DNA from: Microbacterium sp.
Lineage (GTDB): Bacteria > Actinomycetota > Actinomycetes > Actinomycetales > Microbacteriaceae
Length of the DNA: 64,000 bases
Direction of reading: 5' to 3'
Assembly: GCA_048594675.1 (NCBI GenBank)
Contig: JBMDWQ010000018.1
Coordinates: 13,349-77,348 of the forward strand
Shown: piece after piece, positions 9,151-63,415 of the stretch
How positions within the stretch are numbered: position 1 is the first letter of the stretch
Layout: the number at the start of each line of letters is the position of its first letter
The notes under the pieces: model-generated
Database searches by the model: none
Seen by the model: the letters and a program-made list of their open reading frames with translations, nothing else
Told to the model about the DNA's origin: nothing
Program-made: the position numbers and the translations under genes

Positions 9151-9738
9151 TCAGCGCACTTCGGACACCAGCACCGCGGTGGTGTCGCGCTCCCGCGCCT
9201 CGAACACGTGCGGGGCGTCACCGCGATATCGCATGTAGTCGCCCGGATGGAGTACGACGGGTTCGCCGGCGGGGCCCACCGAGGCGCTGCCGCTGATCAG
9301 GACGACGTGCTCCGTGGTTCCCGATGAGTGGGGGAGCGAACGGCGGGGCTCTCCCGGCTGTGCTCGGAGGAGGTAGAGGTCGCTACGCGCGTGCGGAGCG
9401 CCGGCAGCGAGGAGGAACGCCTCGTAGGGGGCGTCGCTCGCGCGGATGCCCGGTCGGTCCGCTGCCCGCACGACGTGGGTCTGCGCGCCGGGGGCGTCGA
9501 CGAAGACCGAGAAAGGCACGTCGAGGGCCGTGGCGATCGCCCAGAGCGTCTCGACGCTGGGGTTCCCGGTGCCGGACTCCAGCTGTGACACGGTGGCCTT
9601 GGCCACCCCCGCCCGGCGCGCGAGCTCTGCTGCACCCAGCCCGGCGCGCTCCCGTTCTCGCCGGAGGGCGCGAGCGATCCGCGCGCCGAGGGTTGCTGCC
9701 TGGTTTCCCTCGGCGTCGTCCGTGGCTGTTTCGTCCAT
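9151..9738 (-). CDS. XRE-family HTH regulator with C-terminal cupin
   Basis: LARRAGVAKATVSQLESGTGNPSVETL HTH; HSSGTTEH...GDYMRY cupin; divergent from azlC. Confidence 0.9.
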   Translation of the reverse strand: MDETATDDAEGNQAATLGARIARALRRERERAGLGAAELARRAGVAKATVSQLESGTGNPSVETLWAIATALDVPFSVFVDAPGAQTHVVRAADRPGIRASDAPYEAFLLAAGAPHARSDLYLLRAQPGEPRRSLPHSSGTTEHVVLISGSASVGPAGEPVVLHPGDYMRYRGDAPHVFEARERDTTAVLVSEVR

Positions 9739-59105: not shown

Positions 59106-59199
59106 CGGGTCAGGCTACACGCATAGGCTGATCGAGGCTTCGCCATAAGGAACGCACAGCATCGCGAGTCAAGCTGAGGGTGTCTCGAAAGGAACCGCC

Positions 59200-60705
59200 A
59201 TGAGCACTTCATCACCGGAAGACCACACCTCCGTCCCCGACGCCGGGTCGTTCCCGAACGGTGCGAGCGACGCGGCGTCCGACACCGCCGCCTCTCACAC
59301 CGAGTCCGCCCCCGCGGCGTCCGAGTCCGCCACCGCGGCACCCGACACCGCCGCCGGCGAGGCCGTTCCCCCGCGTCCGCCGCTGCCGTACGGCGGTGCG
59401 TTCCACACTCAGCCCACGCAGCCGTACGCCCCGGGCCCCTACACCTCGGCGCCGGGTCAGCCCGGGCCGGTGCCGCCCGCGGCCGAGCATGCGGGAGCGG
59501 AATCGTCCGGGCGCGTCGGCGCGGGCAAGATCGTCGCCATCATGGTCGCCGCCGCCCTCGTCGGGGGCGCTGCCGGTCTCGGCGCGTCGGCCGCCGGCGG
59601 GTCGTTCTTCGCCGCAAACGGCTCGACCGTCGTGACCTCCGGACCGTCCACCGTCACCGTCAACAACCGCGAGTCGGTCAACCAGACCACGGCGATCGCG
59701 GCGAAAGTCCTTCCGAGCGTCGTCACCATCGCGGCGACGTCCGGCTCCGGCGGCGGCACGGGTTCCGGGGTCGTTCTCAGTAGCGACGGCTACGTCGTGA
59801 CCAACACCCACGTGGTCACCCTCGACGGTGCCACCGGGGACGCCGCGATCACGGTGACGACCTCTGACGGCAAGGTCTATCAGGCCACGGTCGTGGGCAC
59901 CGACCCGACCTACGATCTGGCCGTGATCAAGCTCAAGGATGCGAGTGGTCTGACACCCATCCAGTTCGCCGACTCGTCGTCGCTGAATGTGGGGGATCAG
60001 ACCGTCGCGATCGGCGCGCCGCTCGGGCTCTCGAACACCGTCACCACGGGCATCGTAAGCGCGCTCAACCGCTCGATCCAGATCGCCTCGTCCGCCGCGC
60101 CCGACGGCGGCGCGGACGACGACTCGCCGCAGGGTCAGAACGAGTCGCCGTTCCAGTTCGATTTCGGGCAGGGCCAGCAGCAGCAGTCGCCGAAGAGCTC
60201 GATCTCCATCGCCGTGATCCAGACTGATGCCGCCATCAACCCCGGAAACTCCGGCGGCGCCCTCGTCGACGAGGCGGGGAAGCTGATCGGCATCAACGTC
60301 GCGATCGCCTCCACCGGGGGATCCAGCTCGAGCCAGGCCGGCTCCATCGGCGTCGGCTTCTCGATTCCGTCGAACGTCGTCAAGCGCATCACCGACGAGC
60401 TCATCGACACCGGGGCGGCCACCCACGGACTCCTCGGGGCGATGGTCGGCGACGCCGCTTCGCAGAAGGGTGCGACGACCGCGGGCGCCTACATCAGCGA
60501 GGTGTCCTCCGGCGGCGCGGCAGCCAAGGCCGGGCTCAAGGCCGGCGACGTCGTCACCTCGTTCAACGGGGTCCCGATCACCGACGCGACCGACCTCACC
60601 GCGCAGGTGCGTGCGCTTGCGGCGGGAAGCACGGCGACCGTCGTCTACGTGCGTGACGGCGCCACCGCCTCGGTCGAGGTGACCCTCGGGACGCTCTCCG
60701 ACTGA
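59200..60705 (+). CDS. htrA: Membrane-anchored HtrA-family serine protease with PDZ (PepD-like)
   Basis: TM helix; VTNTHV, YDLAVIK, DAAINPGNSGG; C-terminal PDZ; RBS GAAAGGA. Confidence 0.92.
   Translation: MSTSSPEDHTSVPDAGSFPNGASDAASDTAASHTESAPAASESATAAPDTAAGEAVPPRPPLPYGGAFHTQPTQPYAPGPYTSAPGQPGPVPPAAEHAGAESSGRVGAGKIVAIMVAAALVGGAAGLGASAAGGSFFAANGSTVVTSGPSTVTVNNRESVNQTTAIAAKVLPSVVTIAATSGSGGGTGSGVVLSSDGYVVTNTHVVTLDGATGDAAITVTTSDGKVYQATVVGTDPTYDLAVIKLKDASGLTPIQFADSSSLNVGDQTVAIGAPLGLSNTVTTGIVSALNRSIQIASSAAPDGGADDDSPQGQNESPFQFDFGQGQQQQSPKSSISIAVIQTDAAINPGNSGGALVDEAGKLIGINVAIASTGGSSSSQAGSIGVGFSIPSNVVKRITDELIDTGAATHGLLGAMVGDAASQKGATTAGAYISEVSSGGAAAKAGLKAGDVVTSFNGVPITDATDLTAQVRALAAGSTATVVYVRDGATASVEVTLGTLSD
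59272..59355 (+). repeat. Four degenerate 21-nt tandem units in the htrA N-terminal region
   Basis: gcggcgtccgacaccgccgcc / tctcacaccgagtccgccccc / gcggcgtccgagtccgccacc / gcggcacccgacaccgccgcc. Confidence 0.7.
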
Positions 60706-60711
60706 CAGCTC

Positions 60712-60756
60712 AGAAGGACGCCACCCCGCGATAGGCTCGCGAGGTGGCGTCCTTCT
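60712..60756 (+). terminator. htrA terminator hairpin overlapping the next gene's promoter and start codon
   Basis: 14-bp perfect stem + C/A mismatch + 5-bp stem, loop TAGGC, followed by ctttc. Confidence 0.75.
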
Positions 60757-61973
60757 CTTTCGGTGCGGGAAACGTCGCCAAGCTGGTGCGGATCCCGCTG
60801 TATGTCGCCGGACGGCTGGCCACGTTGATCGTCCCGCGCTCCTCACGCGAGTGGGTGTTCGGGTCCGCGGCCGGCGTCGCCGACGGTGCCCTCGCCCTCT
60901 GGCGTGTCGCGTCGGCTGCGGGGGAGCAGACCGTGTGGCTCGTCGCCGATGTCGAGCAAGAACGAGCGGCCGCTGCGGAGGGCATCCCGACCGTGCGGAA
61001 AGGCAGCGCCCGTGCCTTCTGGCGGACCGCGCGGGCGCGGGTCGTCGTCGTGACGCACGGCTTCGGCGACGTCGATCGCTACGCGACGACGGGCGCGGTC
61101 GTGGTCCAGTTGTGGCACGGCATTCCCCTCAAGCGCATCGGACTCGACTCGCCGGCCACGGTGCGCGCCCCTCTTGCGATCCTCCGGCCGCTCATCGCCG
61201 CGCTCTATCGGCGCACGCAACGACGGATCCGATTGATCCCGGCGGCATCGCATCTCGTGCGGGGGCGTCTCGAGTCTGCTTTCGCGCTCCCCGACCCGAG
61301 TGTTCCGGTGACGGGCGAACCACGCGTCGACGTGCTGTCGGCGGGACGGGCGGAGGACCGGCACGACACGGCGCGTGCCGAGATCGCGCGCGTCGTCGGT
61401 CCGATCGGCGATCGCGCGCTCGTGCTGTACGCGCCGACCTGGCGCGACGGCGCTCCCGACCCCGCCGTGCCCGATGCGGCGCAATGGCAACGCATCCTCG
61501 AGGTCCTGGAGGAGCGGGATGCGGTGCTGCTGATCCGCTCTCATCCGCTCGGGGCGGGCGACTATGCCGCCGGTGTCGGCGATCGGGTGCGTCTGCTCGG
61601 CAGCGATCTCGTCGCCGACGTCACGCCGTTGCTCCCGGCGCTGCGGGCGCTCGTGACGGACTACTCCTCCCTGATCTTCGACGCGTCGCTCGTGCCCGTC
61701 CCCGTGGTGTTCCTTGCTCCCGACCTCGAGTCCTACCGTGCCGAGCGCGGCTTTTACGGGCGATACGAGGACGTGTCCGGCGGAGACCACGCCGGCAGTT
61801 GGAGTCAGGCAGCGGACCAGCTCGCCGCCGTCCTCGTCGACGGAGCAGAGCGGGACCGGCGGCTGGGATGCGCGCGCACGCTCGACGCGAGTGTGCACGC
61901 CTTCCGAGACGGTCGGAACACCGAACGCGTGTACGCGCGCATCTGCGAGATCCTGGAAGGACAGCGGCGATGA
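60744..61973 (+). CDS. CDP-glycerol glycerophosphotransferase family protein (TagB/TagF-like)
   Basis: VQLWHGIPLKRIG, GEPRVD, LYAPTWRD, RSHP, TDYSSL; TAGGCT-N6-GTG. Confidence 0.88.
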   Translation: MASFSFGAGNVAKLVRIPLYVAGRLATLIVPRSSREWVFGSAAGVADGALALWRVASAAGEQTVWLVADVEQERAAAAEGIPTVRKGSARAFWRTARARVVVVTHGFGDVDRYATTGAVVVQLWHGIPLKRIGLDSPATVRAPLAILRPLIAALYRRTQRRIRLIPAASHLVRGRLESAFALPDPSVPVTGEPRVDVLSAGRAEDRHDTARAEIARVVGPIGDRALVLYAPTWRDGAPDPAVPDAAQWQRILEVLEERDAVLLIRSHPLGAGDYAAGVGDRVRLLGSDLVADVTPLLPALRALVTDYSSLIFDASLVPVPVVFLAPDLESYRAERGFYGRYEDVSGGDHAGSWSQAADQLAAVLVDGAERDRRLGCARTLDASVHAFRDGRNTERVYARICEILEGQRR

Positions 61974-63415
61974 TCCAGGCACGCTTCACACCGCACGCCG
62001 CTCTCGAACTCACCGGTCGCGGCGAACGACCCCGCCGCGTCGAGCTGCGCGGCCCCCGCGCGCGCGTGCAGGGCCAGATCACCGGACGAGGAAAGACGTG
62101 GCGGGCGGTCATCCCGCTGGAGGCGGCGCGGTGGGAGGGTCCGACTCTTCCGCTCCCGTCCGGCGACTACCTCGTGGAGACAGCGTTCGACGGCGACGCG
62201 GCGGCAGAGGAACTACCTGCGCTCACCCTGACGCAGTGGCCCTCGCTGCGGGCTGAGCTGCGCGACGGGGTGCTCCGGGTGGGGCCGCCCATCGATCCCG
62301 CCTACGACTCGGGCGAGGGCCAGGACGCTCTGGAACGCCGGTACGCGACGCGGCCCCAAGGGCTCGAGAACGCCGTGTTCTTCGAGAGTTTCTACGGGCG
62401 AAGCGCCAGCTGCAACCCGAGGGCGATCGATCGCGAGCTCGCGCGGCGGGCTCCGAACGTCACCCGTTACTGGAGCGTGGTCGATCTGTCGGTGCAGGTG
62501 CCCGACGGGGCGATCGCGGTCGTGGAGGGCAGTCCGGAATGGTGGCGGGCGCGCGGTGCGGCGCGGCTGCTCGTGGTCAACGACTGGTTGCGCCGTCGAT
62601 TCTCGCGACGACCGGGGCAGATCGTGCTGCAGACCTGGCACGGCACGCCCCTCAAGCGCCTCGCACTGCATCGCCCGGGTTTCGATCCGCGACGCGCGCT
62701 CGCGGTGCTGAAGGAGTCACGGCGGTGGAACGTGCTTCTGGCGCAGAACCACTATGCGGCGCGGGTCTTACGGGGTGCCTACGCGTTCCGTCGCCGTCCG
62801 ATCTGGATCGAGGGATACCCCCGCAACGACGTCCTCGTGACGGGCGAGGCCGGTCCAGTGAGGCGTCGCCTCGGGATCGCCGACGACGAGCGCGTGGTCC
62901 TCTACGCGCCGACGTGGCGAGACGATCGCGCGGACATCGTCGACTTCCTCGATCTCGAACGGTTGGCGTCGGTCACCGGCGCGATCGTGCTCGTGCGTGG
63001 CCACTCGCGAACTCTCGCGGGGGGCGACGACGCGGAGGGCGCCCGCGTCGTCGACGTCACGTCATACCCCGACGTGTCCGACCTGCTGCTGGCCGCAGAC
63101 GTCCTGATCACCGATTACTCCTCGGTCATGTTCGACTTCACGGTGACCGGGAAGCCGGTCTTCTTCTTCGCCCCGGACATCGATCACTACCGCGGCGAGC
63201 TGCGGGGGTTCTCTTTCGACCTCCTCGCCGAGGCGCCCGGACCGATCAGCGTCACACAGGACGAGCTGGAGGCTCATCTCGCCGACGGCGACCTCGTCGA
63301 CGGCTTCGCGGAACGCTACCGCGCGTGGCGCGGGCGGTTCAACGCGCGCGACGACGGCGCGGCGGCCCAGCGCGTCGTGGCCCGGATCCTGGATCAGGGG
63401 TTCGTCGAACGCTGA
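61970..63415 (+). CDS. CDP-glycerol glycerophosphotransferase family protein with N-terminal beta-rich extension
   Basis: FFESFYGR, QTWHGTPLK, GYPRND, YAPTWRD, ITDYSSVMFDF; ATGA overlap. Confidence 0.9.
   Translation: MIQARFTPHAALELTGRGERPRRVELRGPRARVQGQITGRGKTWRAVIPLEAARWEGPTLPLPSGDYLVETAFDGDAAAEELPALTLTQWPSLRAELRDGVLRVGPPIDPAYDSGEGQDALERRYATRPQGLENAVFFESFYGRSASCNPRAIDRELARRAPNVTRYWSVVDLSVQVPDGAIAVVEGSPEWWRARGAARLLVVNDWLRRRFSRRPGQIVLQTWHGTPLKRLALHRPGFDPRRALAVLKESRRWNVLLAQNHYAARVLRGAYAFRRRPIWIEGYPRNDVLVTGEAGPVRRRLGIADDERVVLYAPTWRDDRADIVDFLDLERLASVTGAIVLVRGHSRTLAGGDDAEGARVVDVTSYPDVSDLLLAADVLITDYSSVMFDFTVTGKPVFFFAPDIDHYRGELRGFSFDLLAEAPGPISVTQDELEAHLADGDLVDGFAERYRAWRGRFNARDDGAAAQRVVARILDQGFVER

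What the first reader, a model, noticed from the sequence alone, without database searches (positions are those of the whole stretch)
60712..60760. One 45-nt palindrome is terminator, promoter and start-codon trap for the wall-polymer operon
Seen: AGAAGGACGCCACC-C-CGCGA-TAGGC-TCGCG-A-GGTGGCGTCCTTCT followed by CTTTC, 6 nt after the htrA stop. The -10 box TAGGCT (60732-37) fills the loop, and the GTG start (60744) with the first codons (MASF) forms the 3-prime arm. Inference: htrA read-through RNA would terminate or bury the GTG, whereas a leaderless transcript starting at 60744 lacks the 5-prime arm and is translatable. This would insulate the glycerophosphotransferase genes from envelope-stress htrA transcription. 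In supercoiled DNA a cruciform would expose the -10 box as a single-stranded loop. None of the other leaderless promoters I located here has this layout.
Basis: partly seen in the sequence, partly recalled or inferred. Interest (0 to 1): 0.62.

Follow-up and report, generated by a model that had tools for sequence, protein, structure and literature searches.

The report
Terminator hairpin holding a leaderless promoter
In Microbacterium, the hairpin that most likely ends the htrA protease gene also carries, in its loop and descending arm, the promoter box and start codon of the next gene (a wall-polymer TagF-like enzyme); this compact overlap is conserved across the genus and is a new variant of known terminator-promoter overlaps.

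Summary
Window 60712-60756 is a 20+5+20 palindrome with one C.A mismatch (RNA dG -36.5 kcal/mol). It lies 6 nt after the htrA stop, is unique in the genome, and is far beyond chance.

Comparative data support two overlapping functions.

1. htrA terminator. All 30 same-genus genomes with the htrA-tagF junction keep the hairpin. It shows compensatory and wobble changes and frozen synonymous sites in tagF codons 2-3. Six Microbacterium genomes have no tagF after htrA (five were searched and have no TagF-like gene at all). They still have a 16-22 bp hairpin there, but the TAGGCT loop, and in at least one the GTG, have decayed.

2. Leaderless tagF promoter. TANNNT-N6-RTG is the genome's dominant promoter signature: 282 cases at spacing 6 against a background of about 10-20. 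TAGGCT is its commonest hexamer. TAGGCT (once TAGAGT)-N6-GTG/ATG is invariant wherever tagF is present.

A few species have split the two modules by duplication. One other genus has the same layout with an unrelated stem.

The "start-codon trap", stress insulation and cruciform ideas remain inference. The closest known cases are interoperon terminator-promoter overlaps (tufB-secE) and the T4 gene e hairpin with an internal promoter. This scan has noted similar layouts in phages and Patescibacteria.

Verdict: real, neat, moderately interesting.

The parts
59200..60705 (+). htrA-like secreted serine protease gene (Trypsin_2 + PDZ), the upstream transcription unit
   Evidence: ORF list. Pfam PF13365 at 9e-32 and PF13180 at 5.5e-16. 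It has its own TAGGCT -10 at 59124-59129 and a leader of about 64 nt with a Shine-Dalgarno AAAGGAA.
60706..60711 (+). Spacer between the htrA stop and the hairpin. Relatives differ here in both length and sequence.
   Evidence: Alignment of 30 same-genus loci.
60712..60731 (+). 5' arm of the hairpin. It is non-coding. The core GGACGCCACCCCGCGA (60716-60731) is conserved genus-wide only through its pairing with the 3' arm.
   Evidence: Compensatory changes are seen at 4 pairs (13 cells; 0 of 500 shuffles reach this).
60732..60737 (+). TAGGCT, the predicted sigma-A type -10 hexamer of the tagF promoter. It fills the hairpin loop and supplies the first base of the 3' arm.
   Evidence: TAGGCT is the commonest -10 among 282 TANNNT-N6-RTG sites in this genome. 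The hexamer is invariant (TAGAGT in one of the 30 unbiased loci) wherever tagF follows. It is absent from the loops of htrA hairpins in species without tagF downstream.
60737..60756 (+). 3' arm of the hairpin. It comprises the promoter discriminator TCGCGAG followed by codons 1-4 of tagF (GTG GCG TCC TTC T).
   Evidence: Synonymous third positions of codons 2 and 3 are frozen (30/30 G and 28/30 C), whereas four-fold sites outside the stem have entropy 1.3-1.8 bits.
60744..60746 (+). GTG start codon. Its first base is the predicted transcription start of a leaderless mRNA.
   Evidence: It lies 6 nt after the -10, which is the genome-wide peak spacing. GTG is replaced by ATG in 4 of 30 relatives. 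The N-terminus M-x-x-F-[ST]-F-x-x-G-N is conserved in orthologues of other genera.
60753..60761 (+). U-rich tract TTCTCTTTC (codons 4-6, Phe-Ser-Phe) following the conserved 16-bp core stem. This is the likely termination zone for htrA transcripts.
   Evidence: Read directly from the sequence. T makes up 15% of the genome. T-rich tails are kept after the hairpin in species lacking tagF. No 3' ends were mapped.
60744..61973 (+). tagF1: CDP-glycerol glycerophosphotransferase family gene (409 aa)
   Evidence: Pfam PF04464 at 9.1e-48.
61970..63415 (+). tagF2: second PF04464 gene. Its start overlaps the tagF1 stop in an ATGA, which suggests translational coupling.

Best explanation
The palindrome is a bifunctional junction between two transcription units.

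As RNA on htrA transcripts, it forms a 16-20 bp GC-rich hairpin followed by UUCUCUUUC. This acts as the intrinsic terminator and 3'-end stabiliser of the htrA-like protease gene.

As DNA, its loop carries the -10 hexamer TAGGCT of a promoter with no -35 element, of the type used by hundreds of genes in this genome. Transcription would start 6 nt downstream, on the G of the GTG start codon in the descending arm, giving a leaderless mRNA for two translationally coupled TagF-like glycerophosphotransferase genes. That mRNA lacks the 5' arm, so its start codon is free.

The rare htrA read-through transcripts carry the GUG internally, without a Shine-Dalgarno sequence and buried in the stem, so they should not express tagF.

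What is shown: the structure, its conservation, the covariation, the match to the promoter signature, and the linkage of the -10 box to the presence of tagF.

What is inferred: that termination and initiation actually occur at these positions.

The overlap itself most probably arose by compaction. The Phe-x-Phe codons at the tagF N-terminus supply a rare U-rich tract in a 69% GC genome. The overlap then locked the two units together.
For: Structure.

Terminator role:
- Of 173 hairpins of 12 bp or more in this genome, 91 lie within 80 nt after the stop of a long ORF. The long ones have the same AGAAGG...CCTTCT style.
- All 30 same-genus genomes with the junction keep the hairpin, while the stop-to-hairpin spacer is unalignable.
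- Six same-genus genomes without tagF downstream still have a perfect 16-22 bp hairpin plus a T-rich tail after htrA. Five of them were searched and have no TagF-like gene at all. Some of the hairpins are evident relics: L154 GACGCCACCCCGCGA-CACGC-TCGCGGGGTGGCGTC, and L156 with GTG changed to GCG and compensated in the 5' arm.
- Covariation: 4 pairs show changes on both sides, 0 of 500 shuffles reach the observed values, and slid controls are far lower.
- Codons 2-3 have frozen synonymous sites.

Promoter and leaderless role:
- The spacing histogram TANNNT-Nd-RTG peaks at d=6 (282) and d=7 (115) against a background of about 10-20.
- TAGGCT is the top hexamer, and there is no -35 signal genome-wide.
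- The hexamer is invariant, or TAGAGT, wherever tagF follows, and is lost from all hairpins that do not abut tagF.
- GTG and ATG interchange at the start.
- The N-terminus is conserved across the family, and orthologues in other genera are often leaderless too.

Separability of the two modules:
- In class C species a full hairpin without TAGGCT is followed 30-60 nt later by TAGGCT-N6-GTG.

Recurrence:
- G124, in another genus, has TACAGT in the loop and GTG in the 3' arm of an unrelated stem.
Against: - There is no transcript 5' or 3' end data for any Microbacterium.
- The U-tract is weak by E. coli standards, and the consensus terminator scan did not flag the site.
- L031-L150 were selected with a pattern that fixes most of the loop and 3' arm. 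Only L001-L030 are an unbiased sample for those positions.
- Covariation cells are not independent events, because the species are related.
- In this strain the C.A mismatch makes the + strand RNA hairpin slightly weaker than the minus-strand one.
Confidence: 0.7

Rival explanations
1. Selected regulatory coupling. The overlap is kept because htrA transcription directly tunes tagF initiation. Either elongating or terminating polymerases occlude the embedded promoter (as at tufB-secE), or post-termination polymerases re-initiate at it. Protease expression would thereby be linked to wall-polymer synthesis. This builds on the best explanation rather than excluding it.
For: - Every htrA transcript must cross the tagF -10 and TSS before terminating, as the geometry shows.
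- The overlap is kept in 30 of 30 junction-bearing same-genus genomes and in at least 120 species' contigs.
- It recurs independently in another genus.
- There is experimental precedent for regulation by a terminator-promoter overlap (PMC6735719), and a theoretical paper proposes that sliding polymerases couple nearby operons (10.1101/2023.02.10.528045, listed).
- htrA and the tagF pair are neighbours in most genera of the family.
Against: - In most other genera the two units are convergent rather than tandem, so the neighbourhood does not require this coupling.
- Some Microbacterium lineages split the modules by duplication and others lost tagF altogether.
- No expression data are available.
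Confidence: 0.15
2. Terminator only. The hairpin ends htrA, the TAGGCT in its loop is fortuitous, and tagF is expressed by read-through or from a start codon or promoter elsewhere.
For: - Strong hairpins follow htrA even where tagF is absent.
- No TSS data exist.
- One other genus (G113) appears to express tagF from a Shine-Dalgarno sequence directly after htrA, without a hairpin.
Against: - The loop is invariant as TANNNT exactly 6 nt before GTG/ATG in all 30 unbiased relatives. It decays (CACGC, ACGT, AATG and others) whenever tagF is missing.
- The spacing signature is about 20-fold above background genome-wide.
- There is no Shine-Dalgarno sequence before the GTG.
- The first 10 residues are conserved across the family.
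- Read-through would have to pass a -36 kcal/mol hairpin that also buries the start codon.
Confidence: 0.08
3. DNA-level element. The palindrome is an operator for a dimeric regulator, or a cruciform that controls the tagF promoter, rather than an RNA hairpin.
For: - It is a near-perfect 45-bp palindrome centred on the -10 box.
- In this strain the mismatch is C.A on the + strand but G.U on the minus strand.
- Symmetric changes in both half-sites could also arise from co-evolution with a binding protein.
Against: - Pairing, not sequence, is what is kept. Species without tagF have different stems at the same place after htrA, and G124 has an unrelated stem.
- Pairing runs uninterrupted to a 5-nt loop, which is atypical for operators.
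- Uncompensated changes are mostly G.U in + strand sense: 29 cells against 11 non-pairs in the 16-bp core. Wobble-producing transitions appear at 7 of 11 C/A positions of the 5' arm, and uncompensated changes at 0 of 4 internal G positions (my own hypergeometric estimate gives p about 0.05).
- Species with split modules keep the promoter without the palindrome.
Confidence: 0.05

Closest known systems
[quoted passage not shown]
   Same: The terminator of the upstream unit physically overlaps the promoter of the next. The overlap is conserved over long evolutionary time and tied to contiguity of the two units. Loss of the overlap goes with rearrangement or loss of the neighbour.
   Different: - Here the downstream mRNA is leaderless, so the -10 box, the transcription start and the start codon all lie inside the hairpin, and the U-tract is coding sequence.
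- The setting is Actinobacteria with promoters lacking a -35 element.
- The genes are an envelope protease and wall-polymer transferases, not translation-machinery operons.
- A regulatory effect has not been shown here.
Phage T4 gene e (lysozyme), I-TevI and related genes: an inhibitory hairpin over the translation initiation region, with a late promoter inside its 5' part (reviewed in PMC3014915)
   Same: Long transcripts from upstream fold a hairpin that hides the start site. A promoter inside the structure gives a shorter mRNA that lacks the 5' arm and can be translated.
   Different: - In T4 the hairpin is not a terminator and the long transcripts are abundant. The mRNAs have a Shine-Dalgarno sequence, and the switch is temporal (early versus late sigma factor).
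- Here the hairpin should terminate most upstream transcripts, the mRNA is leaderless, and no temporal switch is known.
PeSL cassettes (promoter-early stem-loops) of T4-type phages (Arbiol et al. 2010, PMC2839356)
   Same: A compact cassette combines a sigma-70-like promoter and a stem-loop that terminates transcription.
   Different: PeSLs are repeated, mobile cassettes with the promoter beside the stem-loop. The element here is single-copy in the genome, vertically inherited, and its promoter lies inside the hairpin.
Actinobacterial leaderless promoters (TANNNT 6-7 nt before A/GTG; for example 22% leaderless mRNAs in Streptomyces avermitilis, PMC8780764)
   Same: The hexamer, the spacing and the purine start match. 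This genome has roughly 350-400 such sites.
   Different: Ordinary leaderless promoters are not embedded in the upstream gene's terminator. This site is the most structured of the 397 candidates in the genome.

Membership tests
Intrinsic (Rho-independent) terminator | Stable GC-rich stem-loop shortly after the stop codon of the upstream gene | tested here: met
   The stem has 19 paired bases with one C.A mismatch (20-nt arms) and starts 6 nt after the TGA. dG is -36.5 kcal/mol, z -7.6.
Intrinsic (Rho-independent) terminator | U-rich tract directly 3' of the stem | tested here: inconclusive
   The tail is UUCUCUUUC (6 U in 9) after the conserved 16-bp core. After the full 20-bp stem of this strain it is only CUUUCGGUG. 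The consensus scan did not call the site. Weak U-tracts are usual in this genome and in Streptomyces Term-seq data (PMC8780764).
Intrinsic (Rho-independent) terminator | Hairpin maintained by compensatory change, independently of the downstream gene | tested here: met
Intrinsic (Rho-independent) terminator | RNA 3' ends map to the tail | not testable with these tools
Actinobacterial leaderless promoter | TANNNT hexamer ending 6-7 nt before an ATG/GTG that opens a real gene, with no Shine-Dalgarno sequence | tested here: met
   TAGGCT-N6-GTG is present. The genome-wide spacing peak is 282 at d=6 against about 10-20 background. TAGGCT is the top hexamer. Start-codon position agrees with family-wide N-terminal conservation.
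Actinobacterial leaderless promoter | Primary 5' end on the first base of the start codon | not testable with these tools
   No RNA data could be reached, and no paper mapping transcription starts in Microbacterium was found.
Interoperon terminator-promoter overlap (operon concatenation) | The upstream terminator and downstream promoter share bases, and the arrangement is conserved together with contiguity | tested here: met
   Sharing of bases follows from the two predictions above. The arrangement is present in 30 of 30 junction-bearing same-genus genomes, and the -10 is lost when tagF is lost.
Interoperon terminator-promoter overlap (operon concatenation) | Transcription load on the terminator changes output of the overlapped promoter | not testable with these tools
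   This needs expression experiments.
T4 gene e type 'promoter inside an inhibitory hairpin' | The hairpin in long transcripts sequesters the start site, and the internal promoter yields an mRNA without the 5' arm | tested here: inconclusive
   The geometry fits. The 5' end of the predicted leaderless mRNA is not unusually structured (z -1.14). Species with split modules show that sequestration is dispensable. No data exist on translation of read-through RNA.
Palindromic operator or cruciform | Sequence, not merely pairing, of the half-sites is conserved and tied to the regulated gene | tested here: not met
   Different stems occupy the same place in species lacking tagF and in G124. G.U is tolerated in + strand sense.
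Known Rfam RNA family | Match to a curated covariance model | tested here: not met
   Only sub-threshold miRNA-like chance hits were found.

The most novel reading that the evidence does not exclude
The overlap is a selected coupling device. Because every htrA transcript must run over the tagF promoter before it terminates inside tagF's first codons, htrA transcription would set the initiation rate of the wall-polymer genes, either by occlusion or by recycling of terminated polymerase. That would make it a protein-free link between envelope proteolysis and teichoic-acid-like polymer synthesis. It is kept across a whole genus and was re-invented in another.
Probability: 0.15. Interest if true: 0.6.

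Novelty: new variant of a known kind. Interest (0 to 1): 0.45.

Why it matters
**Regulatory packing.** The locus shows how far signals can be compacted in high-GC Actinobacteria. One 45-bp element would encode a terminator stem, a -10 box, a transcription start, a start codon and four codons, with the terminator's U-tract supplied by Phe codons.

**Annotation and Term-seq pipelines.** Terminators may end inside the next gene. Pipelines that allow only about 10 bp of invasion into the downstream gene (PMC8780764) would miss them. Start codons buried in strong hairpins need not be mis-calls.

**Synonymous-site constraint and gene order.** The layout explains strong synonymous constraint at the start of a gene. 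It also offers a mechanism for holding two transcription units together, as proposed for operon concatenation.

**Synthetic biology.** It is a ready-made natural insulator-plus-promoter part for Microbacterium and possibly other actinobacteria.

**Limits.** Each component is ordinary on its own, and no function has been measured.

Tried and rejected
- **RNA-seq, Term-seq and TSS evidence.** A literature search for Microbacterium TSS data found nothing relevant.
- **Rfam.** No family matched; only miRNA-like chance hits appeared.
- **Dispersed repeat or MITE.** Rejected. The palindrome and its 14-nt arm occur only here in the genome.
- **Consensus promoter/terminator scan.** It did not flag the site, because its criteria are E. 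coli-like. This is uninformative for this genome, where no -35 signal exists and U-tracts are weak.
- **Downstream start codon.** Rejected. The first 10 residues are conserved in orthologues of many genera, and the start switches between GTG and ATG.
- **Apparent separation of htrA and tagF in G013.** This is a contig break at the palindrome, not a rearrangement.
- **MFE test of start-arm pairing.** It works for the unbiased set (30 of 30). It is confounded in the duplicated class C loci, where the duplicate 3' arm can pair with the upstream 5' arm, so those were judged by inspection.
- **Not attempted.** I built no species tree, so the number of independent compensatory events is only a lower-bound impression: at least four pair positions, in several lineages. 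I did not use the large protein searches or structure prediction, because the proteins are not the question.
Full report
**1. Observation**

- The htrA-like gene (59200-60705; Trypsin_2 + PDZ) ends with TGA at 60703-60705.
- Six bases later an inverted repeat begins. Its arms are 60712-60731 and 60737-60756 (20 nt each, one C.A mismatch) and its loop is TAGGC.
- TAGGCT lies at 60732-60737.
- GTG at 60744 opens a 409-aa ORF of the CDP-glycerol glycerophosphotransferase family (PF04464, 9e-48).
- A second PF04464 gene follows. Its ATG overlaps the first gene's TGA at 61970-61973.

As RNA the 45-mer folds at -36.5 kcal/mol (z = -7.6, 0 of 200 shuffles as stable). The 101-nt context gives z = -5.35. 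The sequence is unique in the 3.3-Mb, 69% GC genome, so it is not a dispersed repeat. No Rfam family matches.

**2. Organism and relatives**

Nearly all are labelled Microbacterium.

In an unbiased draw of 36 same-genus genomes:
- 30 have the htrA-tagF junction.
- 1 has a contig break exactly at the palindrome.
- 5 or 6 lack tagF after htrA.

In the 30 junction-bearing loci the stretch CGCGATAGGCTCGCGGGGTGGCGTCCTTCTC is almost invariant. The spacer between the htrA stop and the hairpin cannot be aligned and varies from about 6 to about 45 nt.

**3. The hairpin is selected as a hairpin, and it belongs to htrA**

(a) *Covariation.* I aligned 86 distinct simple-layout sequences.
- The 16-bp core pairs in nearly every cell.
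- Four pairs show changes on both sides (13 cells).
- No shuffle out of 500 reaches the observed values, and sliding the partner by 1-3 columns collapses pairing to 37-55%.
- Examples: GTG changed to ATG with CAC changed to CAT; GCG to GGG with CGC to CCC; TCC to TCG with GGA to CGA; TCC to TCT with GGA to AGA.

(b) *Synonymous constraint.* The third positions of tagF codons 2 (GCG) and 3 (TCC) are G in 30 of 30 and C in 28 of 30. Four-fold sites just outside the stem have 1.3-1.8 bits of entropy.

(c) *Persistence without tagF.* Six Microbacterium genomes have no tagF downstream of htrA. Five of them (99-100% complete) were searched and have no TagF-like gene at all. All six still have a perfect 16-22 bp hairpin with a T-rich tail right after the htrA stop. 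Several are recognisable relics of the same element:
- L154 reads GACGCCACCCCGCGA-CACGC-TCGCGGGGTGGCGTC.
- L156 has lost the GTG (now GCG), with the matching change in the 5' arm.

(d) *Genome context.* Of 173 hairpins of 12 bp or more in this genome, 91 lie within 80 nt after the stop of a long ORF. The long ones share the purine-rich 5' base and pyrimidine-rich 3' base seen here.

Together these make "intrinsic terminator / 3'-end hairpin of htrA" the best reading. The U-tract is only moderate: UUCUCUUUC after the conserved core. That is normal for this genome and for other high-GC actinobacteria (PMC8780764).

**4. The loop and 3' arm carry a leaderless promoter for tagF**

I counted every TANNNT followed at distance d by an ATG/GTG that opens a high-GC3 ORF of at least 150 codons. 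The counts are 282 at d=6 and 115 at d=7, against about 10-20 at other distances.

Among the d=6 sites:
- TAGGCT is the commonest hexamer (66 of 282).
- There is no -35 signal.
- GTG makes up 44% of starts.

The tagF site (TAGGCT-N6-GTG) is therefore the consensus leaderless promoter of this organism.

The hexamer is invariant in the 30 unbiased relatives, except for one TAGAGT, which keeps T-A...T. It is always 6 nt before a GTG or ATG.

By contrast, every htrA hairpin that does not abut tagF has a loop without TANNNT. This holds for the six tagF-less species and for the upstream hairpins of the split-module species.

The start codon is supported in two ways. GTG and ATG interchange at that position. 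The motif M-x-x-F-[ST]-F-x-x-G-N is conserved at the N-terminus of orthologues in many other Microbacteriaceae genera, several of which also have TANNNT-N6/7-RTG.

No Shine-Dalgarno sequence precedes the GTG.

**5. Natural variants**

- *Class B.* Three or four of the 30 unbiased loci, and more in the pattern-selected set, have a 20-30 nt insertion in the loop that forms its own small hairpin. The outer 5' arm still pairs with the start-codon arm.
- *Class C.* L031, L062, L116 and L144 all belong to one clade that shares the N-terminus MASFSFRAGN; its relative L131 has the simple layout. They have a complete upstream hairpin with loops CGCCG, CTCCG, CGCGG or GGACA, followed 30-60 nt later by TAGGCT-N6-GTG. 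A duplication of the 3' arm has apparently separated terminator and promoter. So the two functions are separable, and burying the start codon is not essential.

Across the family, htrA and the tagF pair are usually neighbours but convergent. They are tandem in Microbacterium and a few other genera. Among those tandem cases:
- G124, in a different genus, has the same layout built from an unrelated stem: ...CACTCACCCGCTCC-GGCTACA-GTGGAGCGGGTGAGTG..., with TACAGT in the loop, then N7, then GTG in the 3' arm.
- Its congener G209, and also G146 and G164, have a hairpin immediately followed by TANNNT-N6/7-RTG.
- G113 instead has a Shine-Dalgarno sequence and GTG with no hairpin.

The merger of terminator and leaderless promoter is thus one end of a continuum of compaction, and it has arisen at least twice.

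**6. RNA or DNA?**

Uncompensated changes are mostly G.U in + strand sense: 29 cells against 11 non-pairs in the core. Wobble-yielding transitions occur at 7 of 11 C/A positions of the 5' arm, and uncompensated changes at 0 of 4 internal G positions. My own hypergeometric estimate gives p of about 0.05.

This, together with the retention of pairing rather than sequence, argues for + strand RNA and against an operator or cruciform. In this strain alone the single C.A mismatch would be G.U on the minus strand (-41.3 against -36.5 kcal/mol).

**7. Mechanism**

Shown here: the structure, its conservation and covariation, the promoter signature, and the linkage of the -10 box to tagF.

Inferred: htrA transcripts terminate in codons 4-7 of tagF. 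Sigma-A holoenzyme initiates at 60744. The leaderless mRNA lacks the 5' arm, and its 5' end is not unusually structured (z = -1.14). Read-through RNA has the GUG buried and internal.

The "trap" follows the logic of T4 gene e and I-TevI (PMC3014915). Here it is probably a by-product, since an internal GUG without a Shine-Dalgarno sequence is a poor start anyway and class C species do without it.

Because terminating polymerases must cross the tagF promoter, occlusion or recycling could couple the two units, as shown for tufB-secE (PMC6735719). This is possible but untested.

**8. Novelty and score**

All the components are known kinds: intrinsic terminator, actinobacterial leaderless promoter, terminator-promoter overlap, and promoter inside an inhibitory hairpin. 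The combination appears to be an undescribed variant in cellular genomes: the -10 box in the terminator loop, the leaderless start codon in the descending arm, the U-tract made of Phe codons, genus-wide conservation with synonymous-site constraint, and an independent recurrence.

Earlier notes of this scan report related hairpin-embedded promoters in phages and Patescibacteria (e1-3469101, e1-3549392, e1-2049961). No look-alike of this sequence had been noted before.

Without transcript mapping the functional claims remain predictions. Interest: 0.45.

Noticed in passing
L227 (G124:C1:2210500-2210900, minus strand), a genus other than Microbacterium: An independent instance of the same layout with an unrelated stem. 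After the htrA stop comes a hairpin of about 19 bp with TACAGT in the loop, then 7 nt, then the GTG of the tagF orthologue in the 3' arm. The congener G209 (L228) has the hairpin and TAGCAT-N7-ATG side by side instead.
   Followed up: partly
Own genome contig C130, minus strand, start codon at 9316 (outside the window): The second most stable hairpin around a leaderless promoter candidate: GGGAGTCATCCCTCCA-CGGTAGCC-TGGAGGGGTGCTCTCC, with TAGCCT in the loop region and GTG in the 3' arm (-39.5 kcal/mol for 70 nt). Whether it also ends an upstream gene was not resolved.
   Followed up: partly
L162, L165, L169, L171, L172, L178-L181, L183, L185, L186, L188 (tagF orthologues of other Microbacteriaceae genera): A conserved motif GTG(A/C)CAGAATCG lies 8-60 nt upstream of the tagF start in many genera. 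Sometimes it is close enough for a very short leader; sometimes a Shine-Dalgarno sequence follows it. It could be an extended -10 type promoter (TGnCAGAAT) or a regulator site specific to this gene.
   Followed up: no
Family-wide synteny: htrA and the pair of PF04464 genes are neighbours in most Microbacteriaceae genera sampled. Usually they are convergent (htrA -> <- tagF2 <- tagF1). In Microbacterium the pair is inverted into tandem orientation directly behind htrA.
   Followed up: partly
G013 contigs C59 (end) and C2 (end): L151, L152: The assembly breaks exactly at the palindrome, with htrA at one contig end and tagF at another. This shows that the hairpin can fragment short-read assemblies and mimic a rearrangement.
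   Followed up: yes
L081 (JACEFY010000049.1, labelled Stenotrophomonas maltophilia strain P13): A 10-kb contig in a Stenotrophomonas assembly carries the exact Microbacterium htrA-tagF junction motif. It is probably a contaminating Microbacterium contig.
   Followed up: no
window 59124-59199: htrA has its own TAGGCT -10 box, a leader of about 64 nt and a Shine-Dalgarno AAAGGAA. It is therefore a leadered gene, unlike its downstream neighbour.
   Followed up: no
window 61970-61973: The tagF1 stop and the tagF2 start overlap in an ATGA, which suggests translational coupling of the two glycerophosphotransferase genes.
   Followed up: no
L148 (pattern-selected Microbacterium locus): TAGGCT-N6-GTG and the tagF start are present, but no matching 5' arm or upstream hairpin was visible in the 120 nt shown. 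The upstream gene was not identified.
   Followed up: no
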